Origin: Escherichia phage vB_EcoM-UFV06
Length of the DNA: 64,000 nucleotides
Sequence record: OP555980.1
Direction: 5' to 3' (one strand)
The translations under genes were made by a program, and so were the position numbers. The notes beneath the pieces were generated by a model. That model did no database searches. It was not told the origin of the DNA and worked only from the letters and a program-made list of their open reading frames with translations. The stretch's first letter is position 1. Every line of letters begins with the position of its first letter. Below, in pieces: positions 527 to 63,697 of this stretch.

Positions 527-849
527 TCAGTGATAAAGTTATTTAAATTTTGAGTGTATTTCTTTTCATCAAAAATCTTTTGTTGTCTGCGTAGCCGCCA
601 TGGCATTTCAATGAACGTGTACCATATCCCAGATAATATTGCTGCTGTAAAAATATTAACAAGTATGGTTAAAAGAATCCAATCTCCTATTCTGTCCATT
701 GGATTTTTTATAAAAAAGTAAAATACGAATGATGTCACAGGACCTATTAATACATCAGTAGGAATTAGCTGACGCTTTAGTTCATACTTCACAGGTTCAC
801 TTGGAAGGTATAGTGATGGCTTTGACATATTCTCTACATTCCTTAACAA
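508..849 (-). CDS. hypothetical small membrane protein (e.2-like position); start uncertain
   Basis: 113-aa ORF with hydrophobic segments (FVFYFFI, WILLTILVNIFTAAILSGIW); syntenic with T4 e.x genes. Confidence 0.5.
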   Translation of the reverse strand: MLRNVENMSKPSLYLPSEPVKYELKRQLIPTDVLIGPVTSFVFYFFIKNPMDRIGDWILLTILVNIFTAAILSGIWYTFIEMPWRLRRQQKIFDEKKYTQNLNNFITECRKLK

Positions 850-1402
850 ATTTTTCTAATAATAAATCGCTTTCAAAATTGGGATTTTCCACGAATTTAT
901 CAAAAAGATCATCAACAATAGTTAAGATATTCTTTTTACTAAGAATACACTTATTTTCATGCTTCGTTTCAGAATCAACTATAAGAGTAAAGAAATATTT
1001 CTTGCCCTGAAATTTTACAGTAGTATCAATATAGAATAAATTTGACTTTTGTAAATTACGTTTAAACCATGCATCACTTAAACTATAAACGCCAAGATAA
1101 TCATAATCGTCGTTTAAATAACAGACCGTCCATTCAGGAGAAACAAAATCAGTAAATTCAACGTCAAAATCGCATGTTAATGAATGAATTGATTCAATAC
1201 TGTTAATAAGTATTCCAGGACGTATTAAAGACTTTTTACCTTTATAAAATCCAGAAAGACTTTCATCAGTTTCATATGAAGAACCCCAATAATAATTACG
1301 TCCTTCTGCCATACGTTTAAGAGCATTTAATAATTGATCTGGAACATCAACCTGTCTTTGGAACTCTTCAAACATTGAATTGAAATCACTTTGCATTTTC
1401 AT
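797..1402 (-). CDS. hypothetical protein (e.x family position)
   Basis: 201-aa ORF in minus-strand early gene array; no motif recognised. Confidence 0.5.
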   Translation of the reverse strand: MKMQSDFNSMFEEFQRQVDVPDQLLNALKRMAEGRNYYWGSSYETDESLSGFYKGKKSLIRPGILINSIESIHSLTCDFDVEFTDFVSPEWTVCYLNDDYDYLGVYSLSDAWFKRNLQKSNLFYIDTTVKFQGKKYFFTLIVDSETKHENKCILSKKNILTIVDDLFDKFVENPNFESDLLLEKFVKECREYVKAITIPSK

Positions 1403-1443: not shown

Positions 1444-2037
1444 TTATTTCAGAGAATTAATATATTCCTGAACATCGGCAGAGGTAGTTTCAACCCCGGA
1501 AATATTACCGTTAAAGGTTTCAACTCGAGCAAGAGTATCTTCAATATCAACCTTAGTCAGTGCTGCAATTTCAACTACATCATCAGCAGTACTAATTCCG
1601 AGGGCATTCGCGGCGCGAGTTTCACGGATATATTCCAATTTAACTGCAAGTTCTTGGCGAGCATCATCCAATTCAACTACTTTCTTGGCGATTTCAATTC
1701 GCATTTCAGCATACCCATCAGCTTTAGTAGTTAACTGCTCAGCTGTTCGACGATATAGCAAGCCGAGTTTAGCATGCATTGTTACATCTTGACCTTCGGA
1801 AAGAAGCTTGCGAATTTCACGCTCTTTTGATTCGGCCTGTCGATTCTTTTCGATAACAAGTTCACGAATACGTTTTTCTTCATTAATAGATTTAACAGAA
1901 GCAGTTTTTAAATCTTTAATTTTATCAAGTAGTTTTGCTGCTGCAGCAGTATACTGTTCTTCAACAGATAGATTTTTAGCCATAGCAGAACCAAGTTTAG
2001 TGCGAATAAACTCAACAATTTTCTTCAGTGTGTTCAT
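1444..2037 (-). CDS. hypothetical coiled-coil protein, possibly PspA/IM30-like
   Basis: 197-aa ORF, long heptad-like charged helices; resemblance to PspA architecture is by eye only. Confidence 0.5.
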
Positions 2038-2080
2038 AGTATTTCCTTAGGTTGATTAAGATTTAAAATCCGTGAGAGTA

Positions 2081-2257
2081 TTATACTCCGGATAGTTTGT
2101 AAACTATTTCAACATCGCCTTTTGCTGCTTTATAACCTTCAGCCCAAGATATAACCGAGTTTTTATCCGAAGATTCAAATTCTGGCATTGGGCTTTCGCC
2201 AATGTTCACGCAGTATGTTTCTTCATTTTCGTCAAACCAAATAATTAAAGTAGTCAT
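2081..2257 (-). CDS. hypothetical small protein (58 aa), not in ORF track
   Basis: ATG at 2257-2255 with GGAG SD 7 nt upstream; reads MTTLIIWFDENEETYCVNIG...KLSGV, stop at 2083-2081. Confidence 0.35.
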   Translation of the reverse strand: MTTLIIWFDENEETYCVNIGESPMPEFESSDKNSVISWAEGYKAAKGDVEIVYKLSGV

Positions 2258-2325
2258 TTATTTCTCCGTTTCTGTATTTGTTTTGATAAGTCTATAATAA
2301 CACCGTCCTTGGTGTTTGTACACAA

Positions 2326-2601
2326 TTATTTCATATTATTGAAATATTCTTCTGCAATTTCGTCGTTATCATGGTAAACTTTAGAAGACAGTTTAACATA
2401 ACCTTCAGCAGTGAACATGTTAATCACAACCTTTACAGTATACCACTGACCATCTTCATTACCCATTACTGCGTAAGTTTCAAACATCGGATGATCAGGA
2501 CCGATAACTTTAATATCATTCACTGTACGACCAAAATCTTCTGAAACACATTTCATAAAGAAGTTGAACAGTTCGCCGTAATTATCCATTTCATTCTCCA
2601 A
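2326..2601 (-). CDS. hypothetical protein
   Basis: 91-aa ORF preceded by early-promoter motif (TTTACA-17-TACTAT) and GGAG SD. Confidence 0.5.
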   Translation of the reverse strand: MENEMDNYGELFNFFMKCVSEDFGRTVNDIKVIGPDHPMFETYAVMGNEDGQWYTVKVVINMFTAEGYVKLSSKVYHDNDEIAEEYFNNMK

Positions 2602-2630
2602 GTTGTTTTCTGTATCAGTAGTTGATAGTT

Positions 2631-2661
2631 GTATAGTACCATAGAAGAACAGGGATGTAAA
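2631..2661 (-). promoter_or_regulatory. early (sigma70-type) promoter, TTTACA-17 bp-TACTAT
   Basis: Minus strand reads ...TTTACAtccctgttcttctatggTACTAT...; upstream of 2326-2601 gene. Confidence 0.5.
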
Positions 2662-2795
2662 CAGTTTTGTGAAAAATTTTTTAAAAAGTTTTGGGGAATT
2701 CTAGGGCAAGGAGGGGAAATTAAAGGATAGGATAATATATTATAAAGGGTAGAAACTAAATGATGCCTAGAGAGGCCTGGAAAGGCTTAGATACC

Positions 2796-2822
2796 AAAAA
2801 GCCCCAACCTTTTGGTCGGGAC
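2796..2822 (-). terminator. intrinsic terminator for minus-strand transcripts
   Basis: Minus strand cccgacc-aaaa-ggttggg followed by gcttttt; just downstream of stop at 2831. Confidence 0.55.
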
Positions 2823-2830
2823 TAAGAATG

Positions 2831-3304
2831 TTATTTGATTTGTTTAGCAGACCAAATGCGGTCTTTAATAATTTTTTGGATGTCTTCAACATACTCAAGA
2901 GAATGAGCATGTGGGTTATCTTTAAAGCTATGAGCACGAGCTAGCTTTTGGCCTTCAGTTTTGATTACTAAAAGCTCTTTAAGGATAGCTTCATATTTGG
3001 AGATAATTCCTTTAACGATATTTTTTTCTTGTGCGACTTTAGGATCTGCTTTAGGAGCAGGTTTACCCGAAGCCTTTGCAAAAGCAGCGCCAGTAGCAAC
3101 TAAACTTTTCCAGGCCATACTAACTGCATTTCCCGTAAATCCTTCCGCTTTCATGTCGCGTGCGAACTGGAATCGTGATTCATCAGAAGCATCTTTGTAA
3201 GAATATTTACCCGCTGCAATGGCTGCTTTTGCGACAGCTTGAATTTCGGTGCTAGATGCTTCATTTAACACCGCTTCATTTAAAAATTGAGTATATGATT
3301 TCAT
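2831..3304 (-). CDS. internal-protein-like head protein with capsid-targeting sequence
   Basis: N-terminus MKSYTQFLNEA resembles the T4 IP targeting sequence MKTYQEFIAE with L-x-E cleavage motif; own TATAAATA upstream; terminator hairpins on both sides. Confidence 0.6.
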   Translation of the reverse strand: MKSYTQFLNEAVLNEASSTEIQAVAKAAIAAGKYSYKDASDESRFQFARDMKAEGFTGNAVSMAWKSLVATGAAFAKASGKPAPKADPKVAQEKNIVKGIISKYEAILKELLVIKTEGQKLARAHSFKDNPHAHSLEYVEDIQKIIKDRIWSAKQIK

Positions 3305-3340
3305 CTTATTTCCTGTTTTAATTCGTGGATTTAATATACT

Positions 3341-3348
3341 TATTTATA
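3341..3348 (-). promoter_or_regulatory. late-promoter motif TATAAATA upstream of internal-protein-like gene
   Basis: Plus TATTTATA at 3341-3348, about 36 nt upstream of ATG at 3304. Confidence 0.45.
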
Positions 3349-3354
3349 CTAAAA

Positions 3355-3378
3355 AGCCCCAACCTTTTGGTCGGGGCT
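3355..3378 (-). terminator. intrinsic terminator (near-identical copy of the 2796-2822 element)
   Basis: AAAAAGCCCCAACCTTTTGGTCGGGGCT versus AAAAAGCCCCAACCTTTTGGTCGGGACT at 2796. Confidence 0.55.
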
Positions 3379-3379
3379 A

Positions 3380-3685
3380 AGCCTTGCGGCAACCTTGTCG
3401 GGGTTCCACCTGCTAAGGCAAGTGTTTGTACGAAACGCCGGGATTCGAACCCGGTTATTAAGCAGTTGACGCTACTCAATATTTTTAAAAGGCCATATCT
3501 CGACCATATCCGAACGTTCCGTCAAAAACGCTACTCGGCTTACGGCAAAGATATTTCCTCGAATCGATAATTCGGTGCGCCGTTTCTGCTGTGATAGTAA
3601 AGAGCCAGAACACAGTAAAACTGTGGGAGGAAACTATACTCCAGGGAACATCAGTCCGACGACTTACCGGTAGCGACCCGGTTTC
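3380..3685 (-). ncRNA. putative small stable RNA(s), rnaC/rnaD-like region
   Basis: About 300 nt without ORF, GC-richer than surroundings; contains tRNA-like T-arm (CCGGGTTCGAATCCCGG on minus strand, plus 3438-3454) with pairing acceptor-like ends; ends at a terminator hairpin. Confidence 0.35.
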
Positions 3686-4036
3686 TTAGTATTCTTTTAA
3701 AGCATCAATTTGTTCACGGCGTTTACGCCATAAATCAATTGCTTCATAAGCAGATTCAGCATTTCGAATTAGCCGACATTTATATAAAGACTTGTGATTT
3801 TGGTATTGCGTAGATAATGGAATTTTATCTAAAAGGTCTTTGCGTTCAAAGTATTCGTAACCATCTAAACCAAATGAACGATTTTTGAGAAATTGCCAAT
3901 GACCATATTCGTTTTCGACATAAACATAATCTGCATGCTGATAAAGCAAATTAATTACACGTTCAGAAATAACAGTATCATTATGATTAAAATAGAATGT
4001 TAAATCATGAACTACTAAATAAACATTACCTTTCAT
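3686..4036 (-). CDS. hypothetical protein
   Basis: 116-aa ORF between tRNA-Arg and the small-RNA region. Confidence 0.5.
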   Translation of the reverse strand: MKGNVYLVVHDLTFYFNHNDTVISERVINLLYQHADYVYVENEYGHWQFLKNRSFGLDGYEYFERKDLLDKIPLSTQYQNHKSLYKCRLIRNAESAYEAIDLWRKRREQIDALKEY

Positions 4037-4054
4037 ATTTTCCTCACTTATAAT

Positions 4055-4130
4055 TGGTCGAGGCAGTAGGGATCGAACCTACGACCCAGGACTTAGAAGG
4101 TCCTTGCTCTTCCTTCTGAGCTATGCCCCG
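4055..4130 (-). tRNA. tRNA-Arg (anticodon UCU), CCA encoded
   Basis: Hand-folded cloverleaf; anticodon loop CTTCTAA; T-arm GTAGG/TTCGATC/CCTAC; acceptor CGGGGCA/TGCCTCG. Confidence 0.8.
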
Positions 4131-4134
4131 TAAT

Positions 4135-4210
4135 TGGGGTGACCGATGGGAGTCGAACCCATGACTACGAGAATCACAATCTCGAGTTCTACCAACTGAA
4201 CTACGGCCAC
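4135..4210 (-). tRNA. tRNA, anticodon GUG (His by code; tentative, no G-1)
   Basis: Cloverleaf with U8, A14, G18G19, T-loop TTCGACT; anticodon loop TTGTGAT; CCA encoded. Confidence 0.55.
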
Positions 4211-4324
4211 ATTAATACCTACTCCAACAATCATGATGTCTTCACACGAAATTAAGAGAAGAGTGATCAGTTCAACCCCTATAATCGCGTCAAGTAGATA
4301 TTAATGTGACAGTTGTCACAAATT

Positions 4325-4399
4325 TGGCGGACGTGATAGGATTCGAACCTATAACCAATCGCTTAACAGGCGATCGCTCTGCCATTGAGCTACACATCC
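4325..4399 (-). tRNA. tRNA-Asn (GUU)
   Basis: Cloverleaf; anticodon stem ATCGC/GCGAT, loop CTGTTAA; T-loop TTCGAAT; CCA encoded. Confidence 0.8.
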
Positions 4400-4403
4400 A
4401 AAT

Positions 4404-4490
4404 TGGTGGGGAGTGATGGAGTCGAACCACCCGAGTCGCAATGACAATGAATTTACAGTCCACACCGCTACCTCTACGGGATAACTCCCC
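4404..4490 (-). tRNA. tRNA-Tyr (GUA), long variable arm
   Basis: 87 nt, 3-bp D-stem, anticodon loop CTGTAAA, 15-nt variable arm, T-loop TTCGACT; CCA encoded. Confidence 0.7.
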
Positions 4491-4496
4491 TTAATT

Positions 4497-4571
4497 TGGT
4501 GGCCCTGGGTGGAATTGAACCACCATCTGGCGATTATGAGTCGCTTGCTTGAACCTTCCAGCTACAGGGCC
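4497..4571 (-). tRNA. tRNA with anticodon CAU (Met or lysidine-modified Ile, as in T4 tRNA-Ile)
   Basis: Cloverleaf; anticodon loop CTCATAA; T-arm GGTGG/TTCAATT/CCACC; acceptor GGCCCTG/CAGGGCC. Confidence 0.75.
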
Positions 4572-4572
4572 T

Positions 4573-4648
4573 TGGTGCTGATTGACGGAATCGAACCGCC
4601 GACATCCTCATTACAAGTGAGGTGCTCTACCTACTGAGCTAAATCAGC
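4573..4648 (-). tRNA. tRNA-Thr (UGU)
   Basis: Cloverleaf; anticodon stem CCTCA/TGAGG, loop CTTGTAA; T-loop TTCGATT. Confidence 0.8.
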
Positions 4649-4653
4649 AAAGC

Positions 4654-4743
4654 TGGCGGAGGCGATAGGATTTGAACCTATGAATCGCCGGAGCGACTGC
4701 CGGTTTTCAAGACCGGTGCATTAAACCACTCTGCCACGCCTCC
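4654..4743 (-). tRNA. tRNA-Ser (UGA), long variable arm
   Basis: 90 nt; anticodon stem CCGGT/ACCGG, loop CTTGAAA; T-loop TTCAAAT; CCA encoded. Confidence 0.8.
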
Positions 4744-4745
4744 AG

Positions 4746-4819
4746 TCTCCATACAAGGATTTGAACCTTGGACCTCCTGATCCCAAATCAGGCGCTCTAC
4801 CAAACTGAGCTACACGGAG
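4746..4819 (-). tRNA. tRNA-Pro (UGG), CCA not encoded
   Basis: Anticodon stem CCTGA/TCAGG, loop TTTGGGA; T-arm CAAGG/TTCAAAT/CCTTG; only 2 nt from tRNA-Ser 5' end. Confidence 0.8.
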
Positions 4820-4829
4820 TAAATTAAAT

Positions 4830-4903
<74 letters not shown>

Positions 4904-4908
4904 AAATT

Positions 4909-4995
4909 TGGTGCGAGAAGTGGGACTCGAACCCACAAGGAAATCATTCCGCAGCATTTTAAGTGCTGTGCCTTTACCAATTTGACCATTCTCGC
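4909..4995 (-). tRNA. tRNA-Leu (UAA), long variable arm
   Basis: 87 nt; anticodon stem CAGCA/TGCTG, loop CTTAAAA; T-loop TTCGAGT; CCA encoded. Confidence 0.8.
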
Positions 4996-4996
4996 G

Positions 4997-5069
4997 CTGG
5001 GAATAAAGGATTCGAACCTTTGCATCTAGCAGTCAAAGTGCTATGCCTTACCAACTTGGCTAATTCCCA
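4997..5069 (-). tRNA. tRNA-Gln (UUG), U1:A72, CCA not encoded
   Basis: Anticodon stem TAGCA/TGCTA, loop CTTTGAC; T-loop TTCGAAT; 1 nt from tRNA-Leu 5' end. Confidence 0.8.
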
Positions 5070-5155
5070 ATTATTAACAAAGGCTCTTTAGCAAGAACCC
5101 TTGATGATAGAGGGTATTAATCAGTGCGGTATGAGTTAATAATAACAAATAATTC

Positions 5156-5680
5156 TTAAAGCAAATTAAACATTTTAACAGTCGGCAAAACAATTTCTTT
5201 TTCTATATAAGAGTATTTAACACTCTCAACTACACGCAAAAAATCATAATCATAATACTCAGAAGCACTGCCTAAAATATTAATAAGTCCTTCAAGCACT
5301 TTATTACCATTCACAAAGAATAAGTCAAATACACGTTCTTCGTCTTCTTCGGATTTATTACCAAGGTCAACTTCTATGTCAAAGACCTTTTTAATGAATT
5401 CTGGATAAAGTTGTTCTGAGAACAGTCCTTCAACCAAGTATTCATAAATAAAAAGCGATTGCTCGCTGAACAAGCCATTACCACAATAACGTTCAGCTTT
5501 AGTACTAGAATGTCTGCTTTTAAACTTCTTTAAAAGATATTGGAATTGTAAGATTTCATGCTCTTCTACGCCAAACAGTGTTTTAGTTTTATAGTTGTCA
5601 CCATCATTTTCCCAGGTAGTGACATCAATTACGTAACCCTGTGGAATTGTAGTACCTAAACAAATATTCATTTTCACCAC
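5156..5680 (-). CDS. hypothetical protein (variable locus between tRNAs and ipI)
   Basis: 174-aa ORF, no capsid-targeting sequence, no motif recognised. Confidence 0.5.
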   Translation of the reverse strand: MVKMNICLGTTIPQGYVIDVTTWENDGDNYKTKTLFGVEEHEILQFQYLLKKFKSRHSSTKAERYCGNGLFSEQSLFIYEYLVEGLFSEQLYPEFIKKVFDIEVDLGNKSEEDEERVFDLFFVNGNKVLEGLINILGSASEYYDYDFLRVVESVKYSYIEKEIVLPTVKMFNLL

Positions 5681-5964
5681 GCTGCATTAATATACGTTTT
5701 CTGAATGCATTCAAGACCTAAAGGATTCTTGAAAATATCATATTCAAGAGGACCTTTTTCTGTTTCAATAAAGAAATCAAAATTTACTGTATTAAATTTA
5801 CGGTCTTCCTTCACTAATTTAACTTGAGAAGATGAACGGTCAACATAAACCTTTTCAACTTCAAAACATGTTAAAACGCCATAATCATCAATCAAGGCTT
5901 TAGCCGCGTCTTGATCATATTTATATCCATTTTCAATGGATGATACTTTCGCATAAAGAATCAT
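5674..5964 (-). CDS. hypothetical protein (variable locus)
   Basis: 96-aa ORF, tightly packed with neighbours. Confidence 0.5.
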   Translation of the reverse strand: MILYAKVSSIENGYKYDQDAAKALIDDYGVLTCFEVEKVYVDRSSSQVKLVKEDRKFNTVNFDFFIETEKGPLEYDIFKNPLGLECIQKTYINAAW

Positions 5965-5966
5965 TA

Positions 5967-6371
5967 TTAACCTTTATCAACAATAGTATGTGTATGGGCA
6001 TTTACGATTTGCCACCAGTCAAAACTATCGCCAAATCGTTTTGATTTATTGTCTTCAATAATTTGGCGTAATTCATCTTCTGTTTCAGCATACGCAATCA
6101 AATCATCATATCCACCGCAAGGATAGTAATTATCGCCTGCGAACAAAAGAAAATTTACTTTAGATGGGTCTACATAATAATGCTCTTTAGGATATTTAGT
6201 TCCTTTCCAATCAGTTACTTCAACATAACGATAAGAAAATCCATTTTTACTTTCAACCCAACTCCACGCTTCAAAAGGAGTATTAAAAACTCTATCAGGT
6301 ATTAAATTACCTTCAAAATGAGAAGGATTTGCATAATCCCCAGCATAAACATAATATTCGTTAATATTCAT
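5967..6371 (-). CDS. hypothetical protein (variable locus)
   Basis: 134-aa ORF; Tyr/Trp-rich; stop abuts next gene start. Confidence 0.5.
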   Translation of the reverse strand: MNINEYYVYAGDYANPSHFEGNLIPDRVFNTPFEAWSWVESKNGFSYRYVEVTDWKGTKYPKEHYYVDPSKVNFLLFAGDNYYPCGGYDDLIAYAETEDELRQIIEDNKSKRFGDSFDWWQIVNAHTHTIVDKG

Positions 6372-6557
6372 TTATTCACCTTTAGAAATTTTATCCATAA
6401 CAATAGCGATTAAACCAATTAAAAATGCTACTACAAGTGAAAAAACATTTTCTGCTGTAGTCAATAATCCGCATATAAATCCAACAAACATTGAAAAACT
6501 AAAAGCGGAAGCAGAAATTGCAATAGCAACATTTCGAATTAATTCACAACGTTTCAT
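6372..6557 (-). CDS. hypothetical small membrane protein
   Basis: 61 aa with two hydrophobic helices; early-promoter motif and GAGGAG SD upstream. Confidence 0.45.
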   Translation of the reverse strand: MKRCELIRNVAIAISASAFSFSMFVGFICGLLTTAENVFSLVVAFLIGLIAIVMDKISKGE

Positions 6558-6585
6558 TTTATTCTCCTCGGTAGTTGATAGGGTA

Positions 6586-6614
6586 ATAGTATCACAACTA
6601 AAACCCTATGTAAA
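6586..6614 (-). promoter_or_regulatory. early promoter, TTTACA-17 bp-TACTAT
   Basis: Same motif family; upstream of 61-aa gene. Confidence 0.5.
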
Positions 6615-6633
6615 CAACTTTGTGAAATATTTA

Positions 6634-6918
6634 TTACAAAAGATTTTTAGCAATAATTTTAAGCTGAGCTACTGAAATATGCTTGGCTTTAAACAAAGCA
6701 GTTTCTTCAGCAGGGGAGATAACGATTGTAGCACCATCTTTCTTAGCGGACCATCCATCACCCAGGTAAACAGTACCTTTGACTTCTTCGCCATCAACCA
6801 GGCTAATCATCGGTTTACCTTCACGTCCTTTGTTTGCTTTAATAACTTCAGAAGTAAGGGTCGCTTCAGTCAAAGTAGAAGCGTTAGTGGTTGAAGTGAA
6901 TTCTTGATAAGTTTTCAT
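6634..6918 (-). CDS. ipI: internal protein I-like, capsid-targeting sequence at N-terminus
   Basis: MKTYQEF... N-terminus; 94 aa; adjacent to 57B as in T4; early-promoter motif upstream. Confidence 0.55.
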   Translation of the reverse strand: MKTYQEFTSTTNASTLTEATLTSEVIKANKGREGKPMISLVDGEEVKGTVYLGDGWSAKKDGATIVISPAEETALFKAKHISVAQLKIIAKNLL

Positions 6919-6948
6919 TTTATTTTCCTAATTAATTTTGATGAGGTA

Positions 6949-6977
6949 ATAGTATCACTACCTCATCAGCATGTAAA
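6949..6977 (-). promoter_or_regulatory. early promoter, TTTACA-17 bp-TACTAT, with embedded 9-bp inverted repeat
   Basis: Minus strand ...gttgTTTACAtgctgatgaggtagtgaTACTATtacctcatc...; upstream of ipI-like gene. Confidence 0.5.
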
Positions 6978-6990
6978 CAACTTTGTGAAA

Positions 6991-7687
<697 letters not shown>

Positions 7688-35560: not shown

Positions 35561-35985
35561 TGATTCTAATCCCTGAAACTCATGAATTAGTTCTCGAGAA
35601 TGTCGAAGCACTTATTCCTGAAGCACAGGGTCGCTTTGACGAGTTGTCTTCTGCTTTAAATAAAGACGATATAAATAAAATTATCGAGAATATGCTTGAT
35701 GATGAAACTGATTTAGCGGTTGCATTAGCTTCTATTAATGAAAATATGCCGTTAAATGAATTTATCGTTAAACATGTTTCTGCCCGTGGTGAAATTACTC
35801 GCACTAAAGATCGCAAAACCCGCGAACGTAATGCATTTCAAACTACCGGGTTGTCTAAAGCAAAACGTAGACAAATTGCTCGTAAAGCTACCAAAACGAA
35901 GATTGCCAATCCAGCAGGTCAATCTCGTGCTCAGCGTAAGCGTAAAAAAGCTCTCAAACGCCGTAAAGCATTAGGATTAAGCTAA
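35560..35985 (+). CDS. 68: gp68 prohead core protein
   Basis: 141 aa, basic C-terminus; synteny. Confidence 0.75.
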
Positions 35986-36623
35986 TGAATGAACCCCAAT
36001 TACTAATTGAAACTTGGGGTCAACCTGGCGAAATTATTGATGGCGTACCAATGCTTGAATCCCATGATGGAAAAGACTTAGGTTTAAAACCTGGTTTATA
36101 CATCGAAGGAATATTCATGCAAGCGGAAGTCGTCAATAGAAATAAACGTCTTTATCCAAAACGTATATTAGAAAAAGCGGTAAAAGACTATATCAATGAG
36201 CAAGTTTTAACTAAACAAGCTCTCGGAGAATTAAATCATCCTCCACGCGCTAATGTTGACCCGATGCAAGCCGCTATCATTATAGAAGATATGTGGTGGA
36301 AAGGAAATGACGTATACGGACGAGCTCGTGTTATTGAAGGTGACCATGGTCCTGGAGATAAATTAGCAGCTAATATTCGTGCCGGATGGATTCCAGGAGT
36401 TTCTTCTCGTGGATTAGGTTCATTGACTGACACAAATAAAGGTTATCGTATCGTAAACGAAGGATTCAAATTAACTGTAGGTGTTGATGCAGTATGGGGT
36501 CCAAGTGCTCCAGATGCATGGGTAACTCCTAAGGAAATTACAGAATCACAGACGGCGGAAGCCGATACAAGTGCCGATGACGCCTATATGGCTCTCGCAG
36601 AGGCCATGAAAAAAGCGTTATAA
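35985..36623 (+). CDS. 21: gp21 prohead core protease
   Basis: 212 aa as T4 gp21. Confidence 0.85.
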   Translation: MNEPQLLIETWGQPGEIIDGVPMLESHDGKDLGLKPGLYIEGIFMQAEVVNRNKRLYPKRILEKAVKDYINEQVLTKQALGELNHPPRANVDPMQAAIIIEDMWWKGNDVYGRARVIEGDHGPGDKLAANIRAGWIPGVSSRGLGSLTDTNKGYRIVNEGFKLTVGVDAVWGPSAPDAWVTPKEITESQTAEADTSADDAYMALAEAMKKAL

Positions 36624-36653: not shown

Positions 36654-37463
36654 ATGCTTAAAGAACAACTGATTGCCGAAGCGCAGAAAATTGATGCTTC
36701 CGTTGCTCTTGATAGTATTTTCGAATCAGTTAATATTTCTCCGGAAGCAAAAGAAACTTTCGGCACTGTATTCGAAGCTACCGTCAAGCAGCACGCCGTT
36801 AAATTAGCTGAATCTCATATCGCTAAAATTGCTGAAAAAGCAGAAGAAGAAGTAGAAAAAAATAAAGAAGAAGCAGAAGAAAAAGCTGAGAAGAAAATCG
36901 CTGAGCAAGCTTCTAAATTCCTTGACCATCTTGCAAAAGAATGGCTCACTGAAAATAAATTAGCAGTAGATAAAGGTATCAAAGCCGAACTGTTTGAATC
37001 CATGCTTGGTGGATTGAAAGAGCTCTTCGTTGAACACAACGTTGTTGTTCCAGAAGAATCAGTTGATGTTGTAGCTGAAATGGAAGAAGAACTGCAAGAA
37101 CATAAAGAAGAATCAGCTCGTCTGTTCGAAGAACTCAATAAGCGTGACGCATATATCAATTATGTGCAGCGTGAAGTGGCATTGAGCGAAAGTACTAAAG
37201 ATCTGACTGAGTCTCAAAAAGAAAAAGTCTCTGCTCTGGTCGAAGGTATTGATTATTCAGATGCATTCTCAAGCAAATTGAGTGCCATCGTAGAAATGGT
37301 GAAGAAATCTAATAAAGATGAAAGCACTATTACTGAGAGTATAAATACTCCTGATACTGAAGCAGCCGGACTGAATTTCGTCACTGAAGCTGTAGAAGAT
37401 AAATCTGCGCAAGGTGCAGAAGATATTGTAAGTGTATATGCGAAAGTCGCATCTCGTTTCTAA
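36654..37463 (+). CDS. 22: gp22 prohead scaffold protein
   Basis: 269 aa as T4 gp22; Glu/Lys-rich helical. Confidence 0.85.
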   Translation: MLKEQLIAEAQKIDASVALDSIFESVNISPEAKETFGTVFEATVKQHAVKLAESHIAKIAEKAEEEVEKNKEEAEEKAEKKIAEQASKFLDHLAKEWLTENKLAVDKGIKAELFESMLGGLKELFVEHNVVVPEESVDVVAEMEEELQEHKEESARLFEELNKRDAYINYVQREVALSESTKDLTESQKEKVSALVEGIDYSDAFSSKLSAIVEMVKKSNKDESTITESINTPDTEAAGLNFVTEAVEDKSAQGAEDIVSVYAKVASRF

Positions 37464-45722: not shown

Positions 45723-45956
45723 ATGTTACTAGAATTTAAACAATTTCTTTATGAAGCTTCTATTGATGAATTTATGGGTAAAATTGCCTCTTGTCAAACA
45801 TTAGAAGGTTTAGAAGAACTTGAAGCTTATTATAAGAAAAGAGTCAAAGAAACTGAATTAAAAGATACTGATGACATCTCTGTGAGAGATGCTTTGGCAG
45901 GAAAAAGAGCTGAATTAGAAGATTCAGACGATGATGAAGTAGAAGAAAGTTTTTAA
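45723..45956 (+). CDS. uvsW.1: UvsW.1 small acidic protein
   Basis: ATG at 45723 with GGAG SD; about 77 aa; follows uvsW. Confidence 0.6.
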   Translation: MLLEFKQFLYEASIDEFMGKIASCQTLEGLEELEAYYKKRVKETELKDTDDISVRDALAGKRAELEDSDDDEVEESF

Positions 45957-63638: not shown

Positions 63639-63667
63639 ATACTATCACAAAGGAACCATACTGTAAA
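63639..63667 (-). promoter_or_regulatory. early promoter, TTTACA-17 bp-TAGTAT
   Basis: Same motif family upstream of 63279-63611 gene. Confidence 0.5.
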
Positions 63668-63697
63668 CAACTTTATGCAATCGTTGGAAAATAAAAA

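What the first reader, a model, noticed from the sequence alone, without database searches (positions are those of the whole stretch)
2796..3378. Internal-protein-like gene as a self-contained cassette flanked by two near-identical terminator hairpins
The 157-aa ORF starts MKSYTQFLNEA, a variant of the T4 internal-protein capsid-targeting sequence with a gp21-type L-x-E cleavage site. It has its own TATAAATA (plus 3341-3348) and is bracketed by two copies of the same 28-bp element (AAAAAGCCCCAACCTTTTGGTCGGG[A/G]CT at 2796 and 3351). Flanking direct repeats are a plausible substrate for cassette exchange by recombination. The product is probably injected with the DNA and could be an anti-restriction protein.
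Basis: partly seen in the sequence, partly recalled or inferred. Interest (0 to 1): 0.5.

Follow-up and report, generated by a model that had tools for sequence, protein, structure and literature searches.

The report
Unannotated injected-protein gene cassette in T4-like phage
A small gene in this T4-like phage carries the address tag that sends proteins into the phage head for injection, and it sits as a swappable cassette between two copies of one terminator; this kind of arrangement is known, but this family and this site are not annotated.

Summary
Window 2831-3304 (- strand) encodes a 157-aa protein starting MKSYTQFLNE|AVLNE|A. A TATAAATA late-promoter motif lies 37 nt upstream. The gene lies between two copies of a 36-nt element (34/36 identical, 555 bp apart). 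Each copy is a hairpin plus T-run terminator on the - strand, and the window holds no other copy.

The window is a Tequatrovirus, identical here to phage vB_EcoM-UFV09. T4 matches both flanks but has one copy of the element and no gene, so the window holds exactly one extra 555-bp unit. T2 and T6 records span the site at the empty length.

The slot lies between the rnaC RNA gene and e.8. In other relatives it holds one or two cassettes of at least four kinds, three with the same head-targeting leader. Unrelated mature proteins share a near-identical hairpin/late-promoter/leader module of about 115 nt.

All 13 family representatives found keep the leader. A 98%-identical ortholog was detected in phage fD1 virions. 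The Bas37 ortholog is non-essential.

Verdict: a real, unannotated member of the T4 internal (injected) protein class, in a third cassette locus. An anti-defence role rests on analogy only. The principle was described in 1994 and 2010, so this is a new member of a known kind.

The parts
3346..3381 (-). Upstream copy of the 36-nt repeat. It is an intrinsic-terminator hairpin (stem-loop 3355-3378, then CTTTTT). It ends the tRNA/rnaD/rnaC transcription unit and abuts the late promoter.
   Evidence: T4 has the same hairpin as a single copy at this place
3341..3348 (-). T4-type late promoter motif TATAAATA. It starts 2 nt after the T-run of the upstream hairpin, and its first three bases (TAT, 3346-3348) lie inside the repeat.
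   Evidence: The same hairpin-TTTTT-(A/G)G-TATAAATA arrangement stands before this gene family in other Tequatrovirus, Dhakavirus-like and Jiaodavirus phages.
3309..3314 (-). Shine-Dalgarno-like AGGAAA, 4 nt before the ATG
   Evidence: read from the sequence
3260..3304 (-). Leader codons 1-15 (MKSYTQFLNE|AVLNE|). This is a capsid-targeting-sequence-like peptide with two L-x-E cleavage motifs. The second pentapeptide is absent from the 153/154-aa alleles.
2831..3304 (-). 157-aa ORF (stop included). The predicted mature product A16-K157 is 15.5 kDa with pI 9.6. It is all-helical, with an N domain (about 18-75), a Pro/Lys linker (76-87) and a C-terminal helical hairpin (88-154).
   Evidence: PHROG 2280 'unknown function'; no Pfam, PDB or PADLOC hit
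2791..2826 (-). Downstream copy of the 36-nt repeat. This terminator hairpin (stem-loop 2800-2823) closes the cassette, and GGTAT|CTAAG marks the junction with the conserved flank.
3382..3686 (-). Context: homologs of the T4 stable RNAs rnaC and rnaD. They form the upstream boundary of the slot.
   Evidence: 90.5% identity to T4 70825-71168; T4 annotation; no Rfam family
2326..2589 (-). Context: e.8 homolog, with its own early-promoter-like site at 2633-2661. It forms the downstream boundary of the slot.
35985..36623 (+). Trans-acting partner: the prohead protease gp21, which would remove the leader.
   Evidence: Pfam PF03420 Peptidase_S77, E 1.5e-111
6634..6918 (-). Sibling internal-protein gene ipI in the same window. 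It is also bracketed by direct repeats.
   Evidence: Pfam IPI_T4, E 1.3e-51; 54-nt repeats at 6575-6628 and 6938-6991

Best explanation
The ORF encodes a so far unannotated family of T4-type internal head proteins.

How the gene is expressed. It is an autonomous late transcription unit: terminator hairpin, TATAAATA, ribosome-binding site, 15-codon targeting leader, mature part, terminator hairpin.

How the protein would work.
- Late in infection the leader (MKSYTQFLNE|AVLNE|A) takes the protein into the scaffolding core of the prohead.
- The phage protease gp21 cuts after the L-x-E motifs.
- The basic 15.5-kDa helical product stays in the head and is injected with the DNA at the next infection.
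- There it most probably neutralises a host defence that acts on incoming DNA. This last step rests on analogy with the other internal proteins.

How the cassette moves.
- The gene occupies a hot-spot slot between rnaC and e.8. The slot is empty in T4, and apparently in T2 and T6 (record spans only).
- Cassettes are gained, lost and exchanged there by homologous recombination.
- The crossovers fall in the repeated hairpin (36 nt here) and in the shared hairpin/late-promoter/5'UTR/leader module.

Shown here: the anatomy, the leader, the presence of the protease, purifying selection, the slot polymorphism and the shared modules.
From the literature: virion association of the ortholog and its dispensability.
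Inferred: cleavage, injection, the anti-defence role and the actual recombination events.
For: Anatomy.

Leader.
- The strict motif MK[ST]Y..F occurs in only two places in all six reading frames of the window: this ORF and ipI.
- Similarity to T4 IPI, IPII and IPIII and to other leader-bearing proteins is confined to the first 11-13 residues, as is typical of this class.
- gp21, gp22 and gp23 are in the window.

Family.
- tblastn finds the protein in 511 phage records.
- The 50%-identity library holds only 13 representatives. The six new ones retrieved are 108-177 aa and carry leader-like N-termini such as MLKFNEFLAE, MINFSDFLNE, MKSFSSFLNE and MISFNEFV..ITE.
- dN/dS is 0.07-0.21 overall: 0.02-0.05 in the C domain and 0.16-0.27 in the N domain.

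Virion. fD1 g140 (157 aa, differing at 3 residues) is flagged PPAP, meaning at least 2 peptides and a mean spectral count of at least 2 (PMC8309999 Table S3).

Dispensable. In bas37_0244, 29 of 34 TA sites tolerated insertions (bioRxiv 10.1101/2025.11.20.689424).

Cassette.
- Window 2326-2825 matches T4 70360-70859, and window 3346-3686 matches T4 70825-71168. The two matches overlap by 35 bp on T4, which is the single repeat copy.
- In a 60-row sample across 771 records, 7 records have the empty-site length, among them T2L, T4, T6 and PST. 19 have an insertion of about 555 bp, 4 have about 685 bp, and about 8 are larger.
- Bas37 and Sfk20, and loci L007, L008 and L014, carry this gene plus a second leader-bearing gene of 187 aa.
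- Dhakavirus-like loci carry other cassettes in varying order: a 205-aa leader-bearing protein and a 184-aa membrane protein. All are bounded by copies of one hairpin.
- The 5' module is near-identical between the type A gene of L011 and the unrelated type C gene of L010 up to the end of the leader. The type D gene of L010 and the type A gene of L013 share the module up to the ATG.
- A Jiaodavirus homolog lies in the syntenic place with the same hairpin-TATAAATA junction.

Analogy for function. Ip1, Ip2 and Ip3 each block a distinct GmrSD enzyme (PMC12373910). Bas37_0260 blocks McrBC.
Against: - No direct evidence of cleavage or injection.
- The fD1 particle-associated list is generous: 113 of 277 proteins, including rIIB. 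Presence there is supportive, not decisive.
- The Bas37 ortholog showed no host-specific fitness effect on CFT073 (log2FC -0.11) or CFE299 (-0.30), and it is not among the hits named in that paper. I did not read the other four comparisons.
- No sequence or fold similarity to any known anti-defence protein.
- The leader deviates from the T4 consensus at 5 of 11 positions, and its targeting competence is untested.
- The direction of change (insertion or deletion) and the recombination mechanism are inferred from comparison only.
- The downstream repeat is absent in the Jiaodavirus relative.
Confidence: 0.72

Rival explanations
1. The protein is packaged but is not a counter-defence factor. It would be a basic head-filling or DNA-condensing component, or a protein that helps DNA ejection. 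Its cassette variability would then reflect relaxed constraint rather than an arms race.
For: - The mature protein is basic (pI 9.6, 24 K+R against 16 D+E).
- The C domain is under very strong purifying selection (dN/dS 0.02-0.05), unlike a typical fast-evolving inhibitor surface.
- No host-specific phenotype in the two HIDEN-SEQ comparisons read.
- ip4-10 gave no reproducible inhibition of a GmrSD panel (PMC12373910 Supplementary Fig. 9). Whether this family was among them is unknown.
Against: - All four internal proteins with a known function inhibit type IV restriction (PMC12373910).
- The gene is absent from T4, and apparently from T2 and T6, which assemble and eject normally.
- It is dispensable in Bas37.
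- The N domain evolves about ten times faster than the C domain at non-synonymous sites, and the two domains are recombined between lineages.
Confidence: 0.2
2. The protein is an ordinary late cytoplasmic protein. The leader-like N-terminus is inherited from a recombination module but no longer functions, and the mass-spectrometry signal is carry-over.
For: - The fD1 list contains non-structural proteins such as rIIB.
- The leader differs from the T4 consensus at Ser3, Thr5, Gln6, Leu8 and Asn9.
- The non-packaged protein UvsW.1 also has a vaguely similar N-terminus.
Against: - The leader and at least one L/I-x-E site are kept in every family member retrieved, across several genera, although the mature N-terminus varies.
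- The leader region has dN/dS of 0.12-0.49, below 1.
- Late promoter timing fits prohead assembly.
Confidence: 0.08
3. The two hairpins are only functional terminators that look alike because of shared constraint. Gain and loss of the gene would be driven by something else, such as co-conversion by nearby homing endonucleases (SegB-type in the tRNA region) or illegitimate recombination.
For: - Homing-endonuclease genes sit in the adjoining tRNA region of relatives: segB in T4, an HNH-type gene g141 in fD1, and bas37_0256.
- SegB is reported to drive preferred inheritance of the tRNA region (Brok-Volchanskaya 2008, cited in PMC4122927).
- The Jiaodavirus relative has a different downstream hairpin.
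Against: - Identity covers loop and flanking bases that a terminator does not need (34/36).
- The T4 empty site equals exactly one repeat copy.
- The junctions of four different cassette types fall inside the hairpin or promoter module.
- No endonuclease gene lies inside the cassette.
- Co-conversion could spread cassettes but does not explain the junction positions.
Confidence: 0.12

Closest known systems
T4 internal proteins IPI, IPII and IPIII (Ip1-3)
   Same: - N-terminal leader of about 10 residues followed by an L/I-x-E cleavage motif.
- Small, non-essential, basic proteins in the accessory genome near the tRNA/e region.
- Mature parts unrelated to one another.
   Different: - No similarity beyond the leader and no IPI_T4 Pfam domain.
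- A different locus (rnaC|e.8), which is empty in T4.
- The leader variant is MKSYTQFLNE, with a duplicated cleavage pentapeptide.
- The target is unknown.
Polymorphic IP loci of T-even phages (Repoila et al. 1994, EMBO J 13:4181; Ip4-Ip10)
   Same: Interchangeable ORFs with a conserved leader, flanked by short homology blocks that hold a late promoter and a terminator. These blocks were proposed to mediate shuffling. This is my recollection of the abstract; the general point is cited in PMC4122927 and PMC12373910.
   Different: - That work concerned the two T4 IP loci (ipI and ipII/ipIII). The present slot lies between them.
- None of the 21 named members read in this protein's database cluster (40 of 216 members read) carries an Ip name, whereas two other leader-bearing proteins of the same phage do: IpIV/Ip4 and IpII-like/Ip10.
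- I could not read the 1994 paper, so identity with one of Ip5-Ip9 is not strictly excluded.
PeSL elements (promoter-early stem-loop; Arbiol 2010 PMC2839356; Comeau 2014 PMC4122927)
   Same: - A composite terminator/promoter motif flanks accessory ORFs.
- A single motif is left at the empty site in a close relative.
- Recombination between flanking copies is proposed, and was shown there as mini-circles.
   Different: - The promoter here is a late one (TATAAATA), not a sigma-70-type early promoter.
- Only the hairpin part is duplicated downstream.
- The shared module extends into the coding leader.
- Mini-circles have not been tested here.
Bas37_0260, a leader-bearing McrBC inhibitor at the ipI locus (HIDEN-SEQ preprint 10.1101/2025.11.20.689424)
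   Same: A newly recognised internal-protein-type gene of a Tequatrovirus with no homology to IPI-III except the leader. The same phage also carries an ortholog of the present gene (bas37_0244).
   Different: A different locus and sequence. A function is shown for 0260, while 0244 had no phenotype in the conditions read.
Integron gene cassettes (analogy only)
   Same: An array position where single-gene cassettes of unrelated function are inserted, lost and reordered at short repeated sites.
   Different: There is no integrase and no attC/attI. Each cassette has its own promoter and terminator. Exchange is presumably by the phage's general homologous recombination.

Membership tests
T4-type internal (injected) head proteins | N-terminal capsid targeting sequence resembling MKTYQEFIAE | tested here: met
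   - MKSYTQFLNE matches T4 IPII/IPIII in 5 of 10 positions, plus T>S and I>L.
- The strict motif MK[ST]Y..F occurs only here and in ipI in all six reading frames of the window.
- It is conserved in all homologs retrieved.
T4-type internal (injected) head proteins | gp21 cleavage motif (L/I-x-E followed by a small residue) at the end of the leader | tested here: met
   L8-N9-E10|A11 and L13-N14-E15|A16. The shorter alleles keep one site.
T4-type internal (injected) head proteins | The phage encodes the prohead protease and scaffolding core | tested here: met
   gp21 at 35985-36623 (PF03420, E 1.5e-111) and gp22 at 36654-37463 (PF25623)
T4-type internal (injected) head proteins | Expressed late, in step with prohead assembly | tested here: inconclusive
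   TATAAATA lies 37 nt upstream and directly follows a terminator. This is a motif only; no transcript data were examined.
T4-type internal (injected) head proteins | Physically present in mature virions | tested here: inconclusive
   The ortholog fD1 g140 is flagged particle-associated by LC-MS/MS (PMC8309999 Table S3). That list holds 113 of 277 proteins, including rIIB.
T4-type internal (injected) head proteins | Leader removed by proteolysis; mature protein injected with the DNA | not testable with these tools
   This needs N-terminal mapping of virion protein and injection assays.
T4-type internal (injected) head proteins | Dispensable on laboratory hosts | tested here: met
   In bas37_0244, 29 of 34 TA sites were hit and the gene was called 'Non-essential'. 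The gene is absent from T4, and T2L and T6 records span the site at the empty length.
PeSL mobile regulatory cassettes | Stem-loop terminator joined to an early (sigma-70-type) promoter and a ribosome-binding site | tested here: not met
   The stem-loop is present, but the joined promoter is the late motif TATAAATA. No -35/-10 pair was found there.
PeSL mobile regulatory cassettes | Copies flank an accessory ORF, and a close relative has a single copy with no ORF | tested here: met
   Window against T4. Seven of the sampled records have the empty-site length.
PeSL mobile regulatory cassettes | Formation of circular excision products between flanking copies | not testable with these tools
   This needs inverse PCR on infected cells.
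IP-locus cassettes of Repoila et al. 1994 | Conserved leader plus flanking homology blocks containing a late promoter and a terminator | tested here: met
   A module of about 115 nt is shared between unrelated cassettes, and the hairpin is repeated downstream. The definition is taken from my memory of the abstract, because the paper is not held.
IP-locus cassettes of Repoila et al. 1994 | Located in the ipI or ipII/ipIII locus | tested here: not met
   The gene lies between rnaC and e.8. This is 3.3 kb from ipI in the window and separated from the e-proximal IP locus by nudE-e.8.
Type IV restriction (GmrSD/McrBC) inhibitors | Sequence or fold similarity to IPI* or another known inhibitor | tested here: not met
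   No Pfam, PADLOC, PDB-sequence or Foldseek match. BLASTP to IPI, IPII and IPIII matches the leader only.
Type IV restriction (GmrSD/McrBC) inhibitors | Relieves restriction of glucosyl-hmC DNA by a defined enzyme | not testable with these tools
   This needs plaque assays. There was no effect of insertions on K-12 against CFT073 or CFE299 in Bas37.

The most novel reading that the evidence does not exclude
The rnaC|e.8 slot is a third, so far unrecognised internal-protein cassette site of Tevenvirinae. A terminator/late-promoter/leader module acts there as a portable recombination and expression adaptor. The 157-aa family would be an injected inhibitor of a host defence not yet matched to any phage counter-measure. 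Its fast-evolving, recombining N domain would be the specificity determinant, and its highly conserved C domain would be the common effector or packaging part.
Probability: 0.3. Interest if true: 0.6.

Novelty: new member of a known kind. Interest (0 to 1): 0.4.

Why it matters
Every internal protein of T-even phages with a known function disarms a host restriction system at the moment of DNA entry. They are therefore prime candidates for new anti-defence activities and for host-range engineering of therapeutic phages.

This family is carried by roughly 60% of the phage records that match this locus: 467 records cover at least 80% of the protein, out of 771 records with the locus. It is labelled 'hypothetical' in every name I saw. 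It is missing from T4, and apparently from T2 and T6, which probably explains why it was overlooked.

The slot shows in sequence detail how a common terminator/promoter/leader adaptor lets unrelated payloads be swapped. The same adaptor could be used to load foreign proteins into phage heads.

Tried and rejected
- Searches on the 157-aa protein that found nothing: Pfam, PADLOC, PDB sequences with a profile. Foldseek of the AlphaFold model against the PDB gave a best E of 1.8, all generic helical bundles. No functional inference was drawn from any of these.
- PHROGs gave only 'unknown function'.
- Rfam found no family for the rnaC/rnaD stretch.
- IMG/VR yielded only 10 loci for e.8, so prevalence was estimated from the GenBank phage collection instead.
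- Repoila et al. 1994 is not in the library. Its content is cited second-hand and from memory.
- The fPS-2 paper contains no proteomics.
- I first took the loose leader-like hit at 45723 for gp67. Pfam shows it is UvsW.1, and this was corrected.
- Transposon-like or target-site-duplication origin was rejected. The repeat is a functional hairpin already present at the empty site, and the cassette holds no transposase or endonuclease gene.
- Only two of the six Bas37 fitness comparisons were read, for budget reasons.
Full report
**What the window is.** The stretch 2600-3700 is 100% identical to Escherichia phage vB_EcoM-UFV09/05/10/11 (Tequatrovirus), and 771 phage records match it. Genes here run on the - strand in T4 order:
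- nudE (71-526)
- e.5 and e.6 homologs
- e.8 (2326-2589)
- the finding
- rnaC/rnaD homologs (about 3382-3686)
- a 116-aa ORF
- eleven tRNA genes (4055-5069)
- trna.2-4
- ipI (6634-6918)
- 57B, 57A and gene 1

**The observation.**
- The ORF 2831-3304 (-) encodes 157 aa starting MKSYTQFLNEAVLNEASS.
- On the - strand the upstream sequence reads AGCCCCGACCAAAAGGTTGGGGCTTTTTAG-TATAAATA-(22 nt)-AGGAAA-TAAG-ATG.
- The 28-bp element occurs only at 2796 and 3351 in the 64 kb, with a chance expectation of 0.
- The repeat extends to 36 nt, 34/36 identical, with a period of 555.
- Both copies are strong hairpins followed by a T-run (-24.1 and -17.0 kcal/mol; no shuffle folds as well). They are the two best terminator-like sites in 2000-7500.
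- TATAAATA is enriched in the window, 24 against 8.8 expected.
- In whole genomes a 51-nt query around the hairpin occurs once or twice per record.

**Is the leader real?**
- T4 IPII and IPIII start MKTYQEFIAEA. This ORF shares M, K, Y, F, E and A, plus T>S and I>L, and has two L-N-E|A sites.
- The strict pattern MK[ST]Y..F occurs in only two places in all six reading frames of the window: this ORF and ipI.
- A looser pattern also picked up UvsW.1.
- The protease that cuts such leaders (gp21, PF03420, E 1.5e-111) lies at 35985-36623, next to the scaffold gp22 and the capsid proteins gp23 and gp24.
- BLASTP against T4 IPI, IPII and IPIII and other leader-bearing proteins matches only the first 11-13 residues. 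That is the known hallmark of this class (PMC3012670).

**The family.**
- tblastn finds the protein in 511 phage records: Escherichia, Shigella, Yersinia, Salmonella, Citrobacter and Serratia phages, plus partial matches in Klebsiella phages.
- A profile search of 1.84 billion representatives found only 13. The six new ones retrieved are 108-177 aa, and each starts with a leader of the same type: MLKFNEFLAE, MINFSDFLNE, MKSFSSFLNE, MISFNEFV..ITE.
- The AlphaFold model (mean pLDDT 75) is all-helical. It has an N domain (about 18-75), a disordered Pro/Lys linker and a C-terminal helical hairpin.
- Klebsiella and Yersinia phage relatives share the N domain but carry a different C domain.
- The gene is under purifying selection (dN/dS 0.07-0.21). 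The C domain is very constrained (0.02-0.05) and the N domain evolves faster (0.16-0.27).
- The two domains have discordant synonymous distances between lineages, for example 1.24 against 0.145. This indicates recombination inside the gene.
- No Pfam, PADLOC, PDB or fold match gives a functional clue.
- None of the 21 named members read in its 216-member database cluster (40 members read) is called anything but 'hypothetical' or 'uncharacterized'.
- By contrast, two other leader-bearing proteins of the same phage, just outside the window, carry the names IpIV/Ip4 and IpII/Ip10.

**Experimental data from the literature.**
- In Yersinia phage fD1 the ortholog g140 (157 aa, differing at 3 residues) is listed as particle-associated by LC-MS/MS, with 'no similar protein in T4' (PMC8309999 Table S3). 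That list is wide (113 proteins, including rIIB), so this is support, not proof.
- In phage Bas37 (KarlGJung) the ortholog bas37_0244 tolerated transposon insertions at 29 of 34 sites.
- It showed no significant change on the uropathogenic strains CFT073 and CFE299 relative to K-12 (bioRxiv 10.1101/2025.11.20.689424).
- The same study shows that another leader-bearing protein, Bas37_0260 at the ipI locus, inhibits McrBC.
- Silas et al. show that T4 Ip1, Ip2 and Ip3 each inhibit a distinct GmrSD enzyme (PMC12373910).

**The cassette.**
- T4 aligns with window 2326-2825 (95.4%) and with 3346-3686 (90.5%). The two alignments overlap by 35 bp on T4. T4 therefore has one copy of the hairpin, and the window has exactly one extra 555-bp unit.
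- The junction reads GGGGCTTTTT(A/G)GTAT|AAATA... upstream and ...GGGGCTTTTTGGTAT|CTAAG downstream. The duplicated segment thus reaches into the late promoter.
- I searched with the two flanks joined and sampled 60 rows across the 771 records.
  - Seven records have the empty-site length: T2L, T4, T6, PST, ACG-C40, SHFML-11 and G2133.
  - Nineteen have an insertion of about 555 bp.
  - Four have about 685 bp, probably the 187-aa gene alone (inferred from size).
  - About eight are larger.
- Bas37 and Sfk20, and loci L007, L008 and L014, carry this gene followed by a second cassette. It encodes a 187-aa protein, MKTYAEFLTEAAKL..., with its own hairpin. This protein is found in 165 records.
- Dhakavirus-like loci carry two further kinds, in different orders. 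One is a 205-aa leader-bearing protein, MKTYNEFLNESVLNEAGVRM..., found in 139 records. The other is a 184-aa membrane protein without a leader. All are bounded by copies of one hairpin.
- The hairpin, TATAAATA, 5'UTR and 16 leader codons are near-identical between the type A gene of L011 and the unrelated 205-aa gene of L010. Similarity stops exactly after the second L-x-E-A.
- The membrane-protein gene of L010 shares the hairpin, promoter and UTR with the type A gene of L013.
- A Jiaodavirus (Klebsiella phage phiKp_22) has its homolog at the syntenic position after the tRNA cluster, with the same GGGGCTTTTTAGTATAAATA junction but a different downstream hairpin.
- The family's presence in this slot in three genera suggests that the empty site in T4 (and apparently T2 and T6) arose by loss. 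This is an inference.

**How it most likely works.**
- The upstream hairpin ends the tRNA/stable-RNA transcript.
- The late promoter directly behind it times expression to head assembly.
- The leader docks the protein into the scaffolding core, and gp21 trims it.
- The mature basic protein is injected with the DNA.
- The downstream hairpin insulates e.8, which has its own early-type promoter (2633-2661).
- Gain, loss and replacement occur by homologous recombination in the repeated hairpin and in the shared promoter/leader module. T4-type phages recombine very actively.
- The anatomy, the polymorphism and the module sharing are shown. Processing, injection, the anti-defence function and the recombination events themselves are inferred.

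**Comparison with what is known.**
- Interchangeable internal-protein genes, with a conserved leader and flanking promoter/terminator homology, were described for the two T4 IP loci by Repoila et al. in 1994. That work is cited in PMC4122927 and PMC12373910. The paper itself could not be read.
- Recombination between flanking terminator/promoter motifs (PeSLs), including excised mini-circles, was shown for RB49 and phi1 (PMC2839356).
- The present case differs in three ways:
  - the locus, rnaC|e.8, is a third site;
  - the promoter is late rather than early, so it is not a PeSL by definition;
  - this protein family is unnamed and unannotated.
- I found no paper in the library that describes this slot or this family.

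**Verdict.** It is a new member of a known kind, not a new principle. Its main value is as a well-defined, widespread and unassigned candidate injected protein. It is also a clean example of adaptor-mediated cassette exchange.

Noticed in passing
window 6575-6628 and 6938-6991 (around ipI, 6634-6918); also 2656-2674: ipI is itself bracketed by 54-nt direct repeats (81% identical, spacing 363). Each holds an early-promoter-like module (TTTCACAAAGTTGTTTACA ... TACTAT). A third copy stands before e.8, and a fourth, with 2 mismatches, at 63662-63680. This arrangement is closer to a classical PeSL than the finding is.
   Followed up: partly
L003 730-1293 (phage KarlGJung/Bas37, bas37_0243); absent from the window: The sibling cassette gene is a 187-aa leader-bearing protein that occupies the same slot in 165 phage records. 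HIDEN-SEQ calls it 'Essential' in Bas37 (1 of 48 TA sites hit; mean counts 0.2 against 472 for its neighbour). Yet T4 and the window's phage lack it. This is unexplained.
   Followed up: partly
window 45723-45956 (+): UvsW.1: the first 20 residues (MLLEFKQFLYEASIDEFMGK) lie outside the Pfam UvsW-1 domain. They loosely resemble a capsid-targeting leader with an L-x-E|A site. It may be chance.
   Followed up: no
window 797-1402 and 1444-2037 (e.5 and e.6 homologs): Insertions in the Bas37 orthologs bas37_0239 and bas37_0240 are strongly depleted on the uropathogenic strain CFT073 (log2FC -3.6 and -6.5, adjusted p 0) but not on CFE299. These neighbours of the finding therefore look like host-specific factors. 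The authors built a bas37_0240 deletion.
   Followed up: no
L010 1636-2190, L011 2326-2880 (Dhakavirus-like loci); not in the window: A 184-aa predicted membrane protein (MKLLKYLSWILLVPLDF...) without a leader uses the same hairpin/TATAAATA module and the same slot, in either order relative to the leader-bearing genes. One record calls it 'holin'.
   Followed up: no
window 3382-3686: The rnaC/rnaD homologs (90.5% identical to T4) have no Rfam family. In the closest GenBank record they are annotated as two small hypothetical proteins, and in phage G4507 as a 94-nt 'tRNA-Lys'. ARAGORN calls no tRNA there.
   Followed up: partly
window 3260-3274 (codons 11-15 of the ORF): The pentapeptide AVLNE repeats the cleavage motif of the preceding FLNE. 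It is present in the 157-aa alleles and missing in the 153/154-aa alleles, so the leader length itself is polymorphic.
   Followed up: partly
L016 3672-4145 and 4162-4479 (same phage, just left of the window): The phage has two more leader-bearing proteins, between a vs.8-like gene and e. One is an IpIV/Ip4 (DUF7412) homolog of 157 aa, and the other is a 105-aa IpII-like/Ip10 homolog. No denV, ipII or ipIII of the T4 type appears in the annotation list, which I did not check further. The phage thus has at least four internal-protein-type genes in three loci.
   Followed up: partly
window 3686-4036 (-): A 116-aa ORF (PHROG 3355, unknown function) sits between rnaD and tRNA-Arg, where T4 has nothing. 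The tRNA set also differs from that of T4: His, Asn, Tyr and Met are present, and there is no segB.
   Followed up: no
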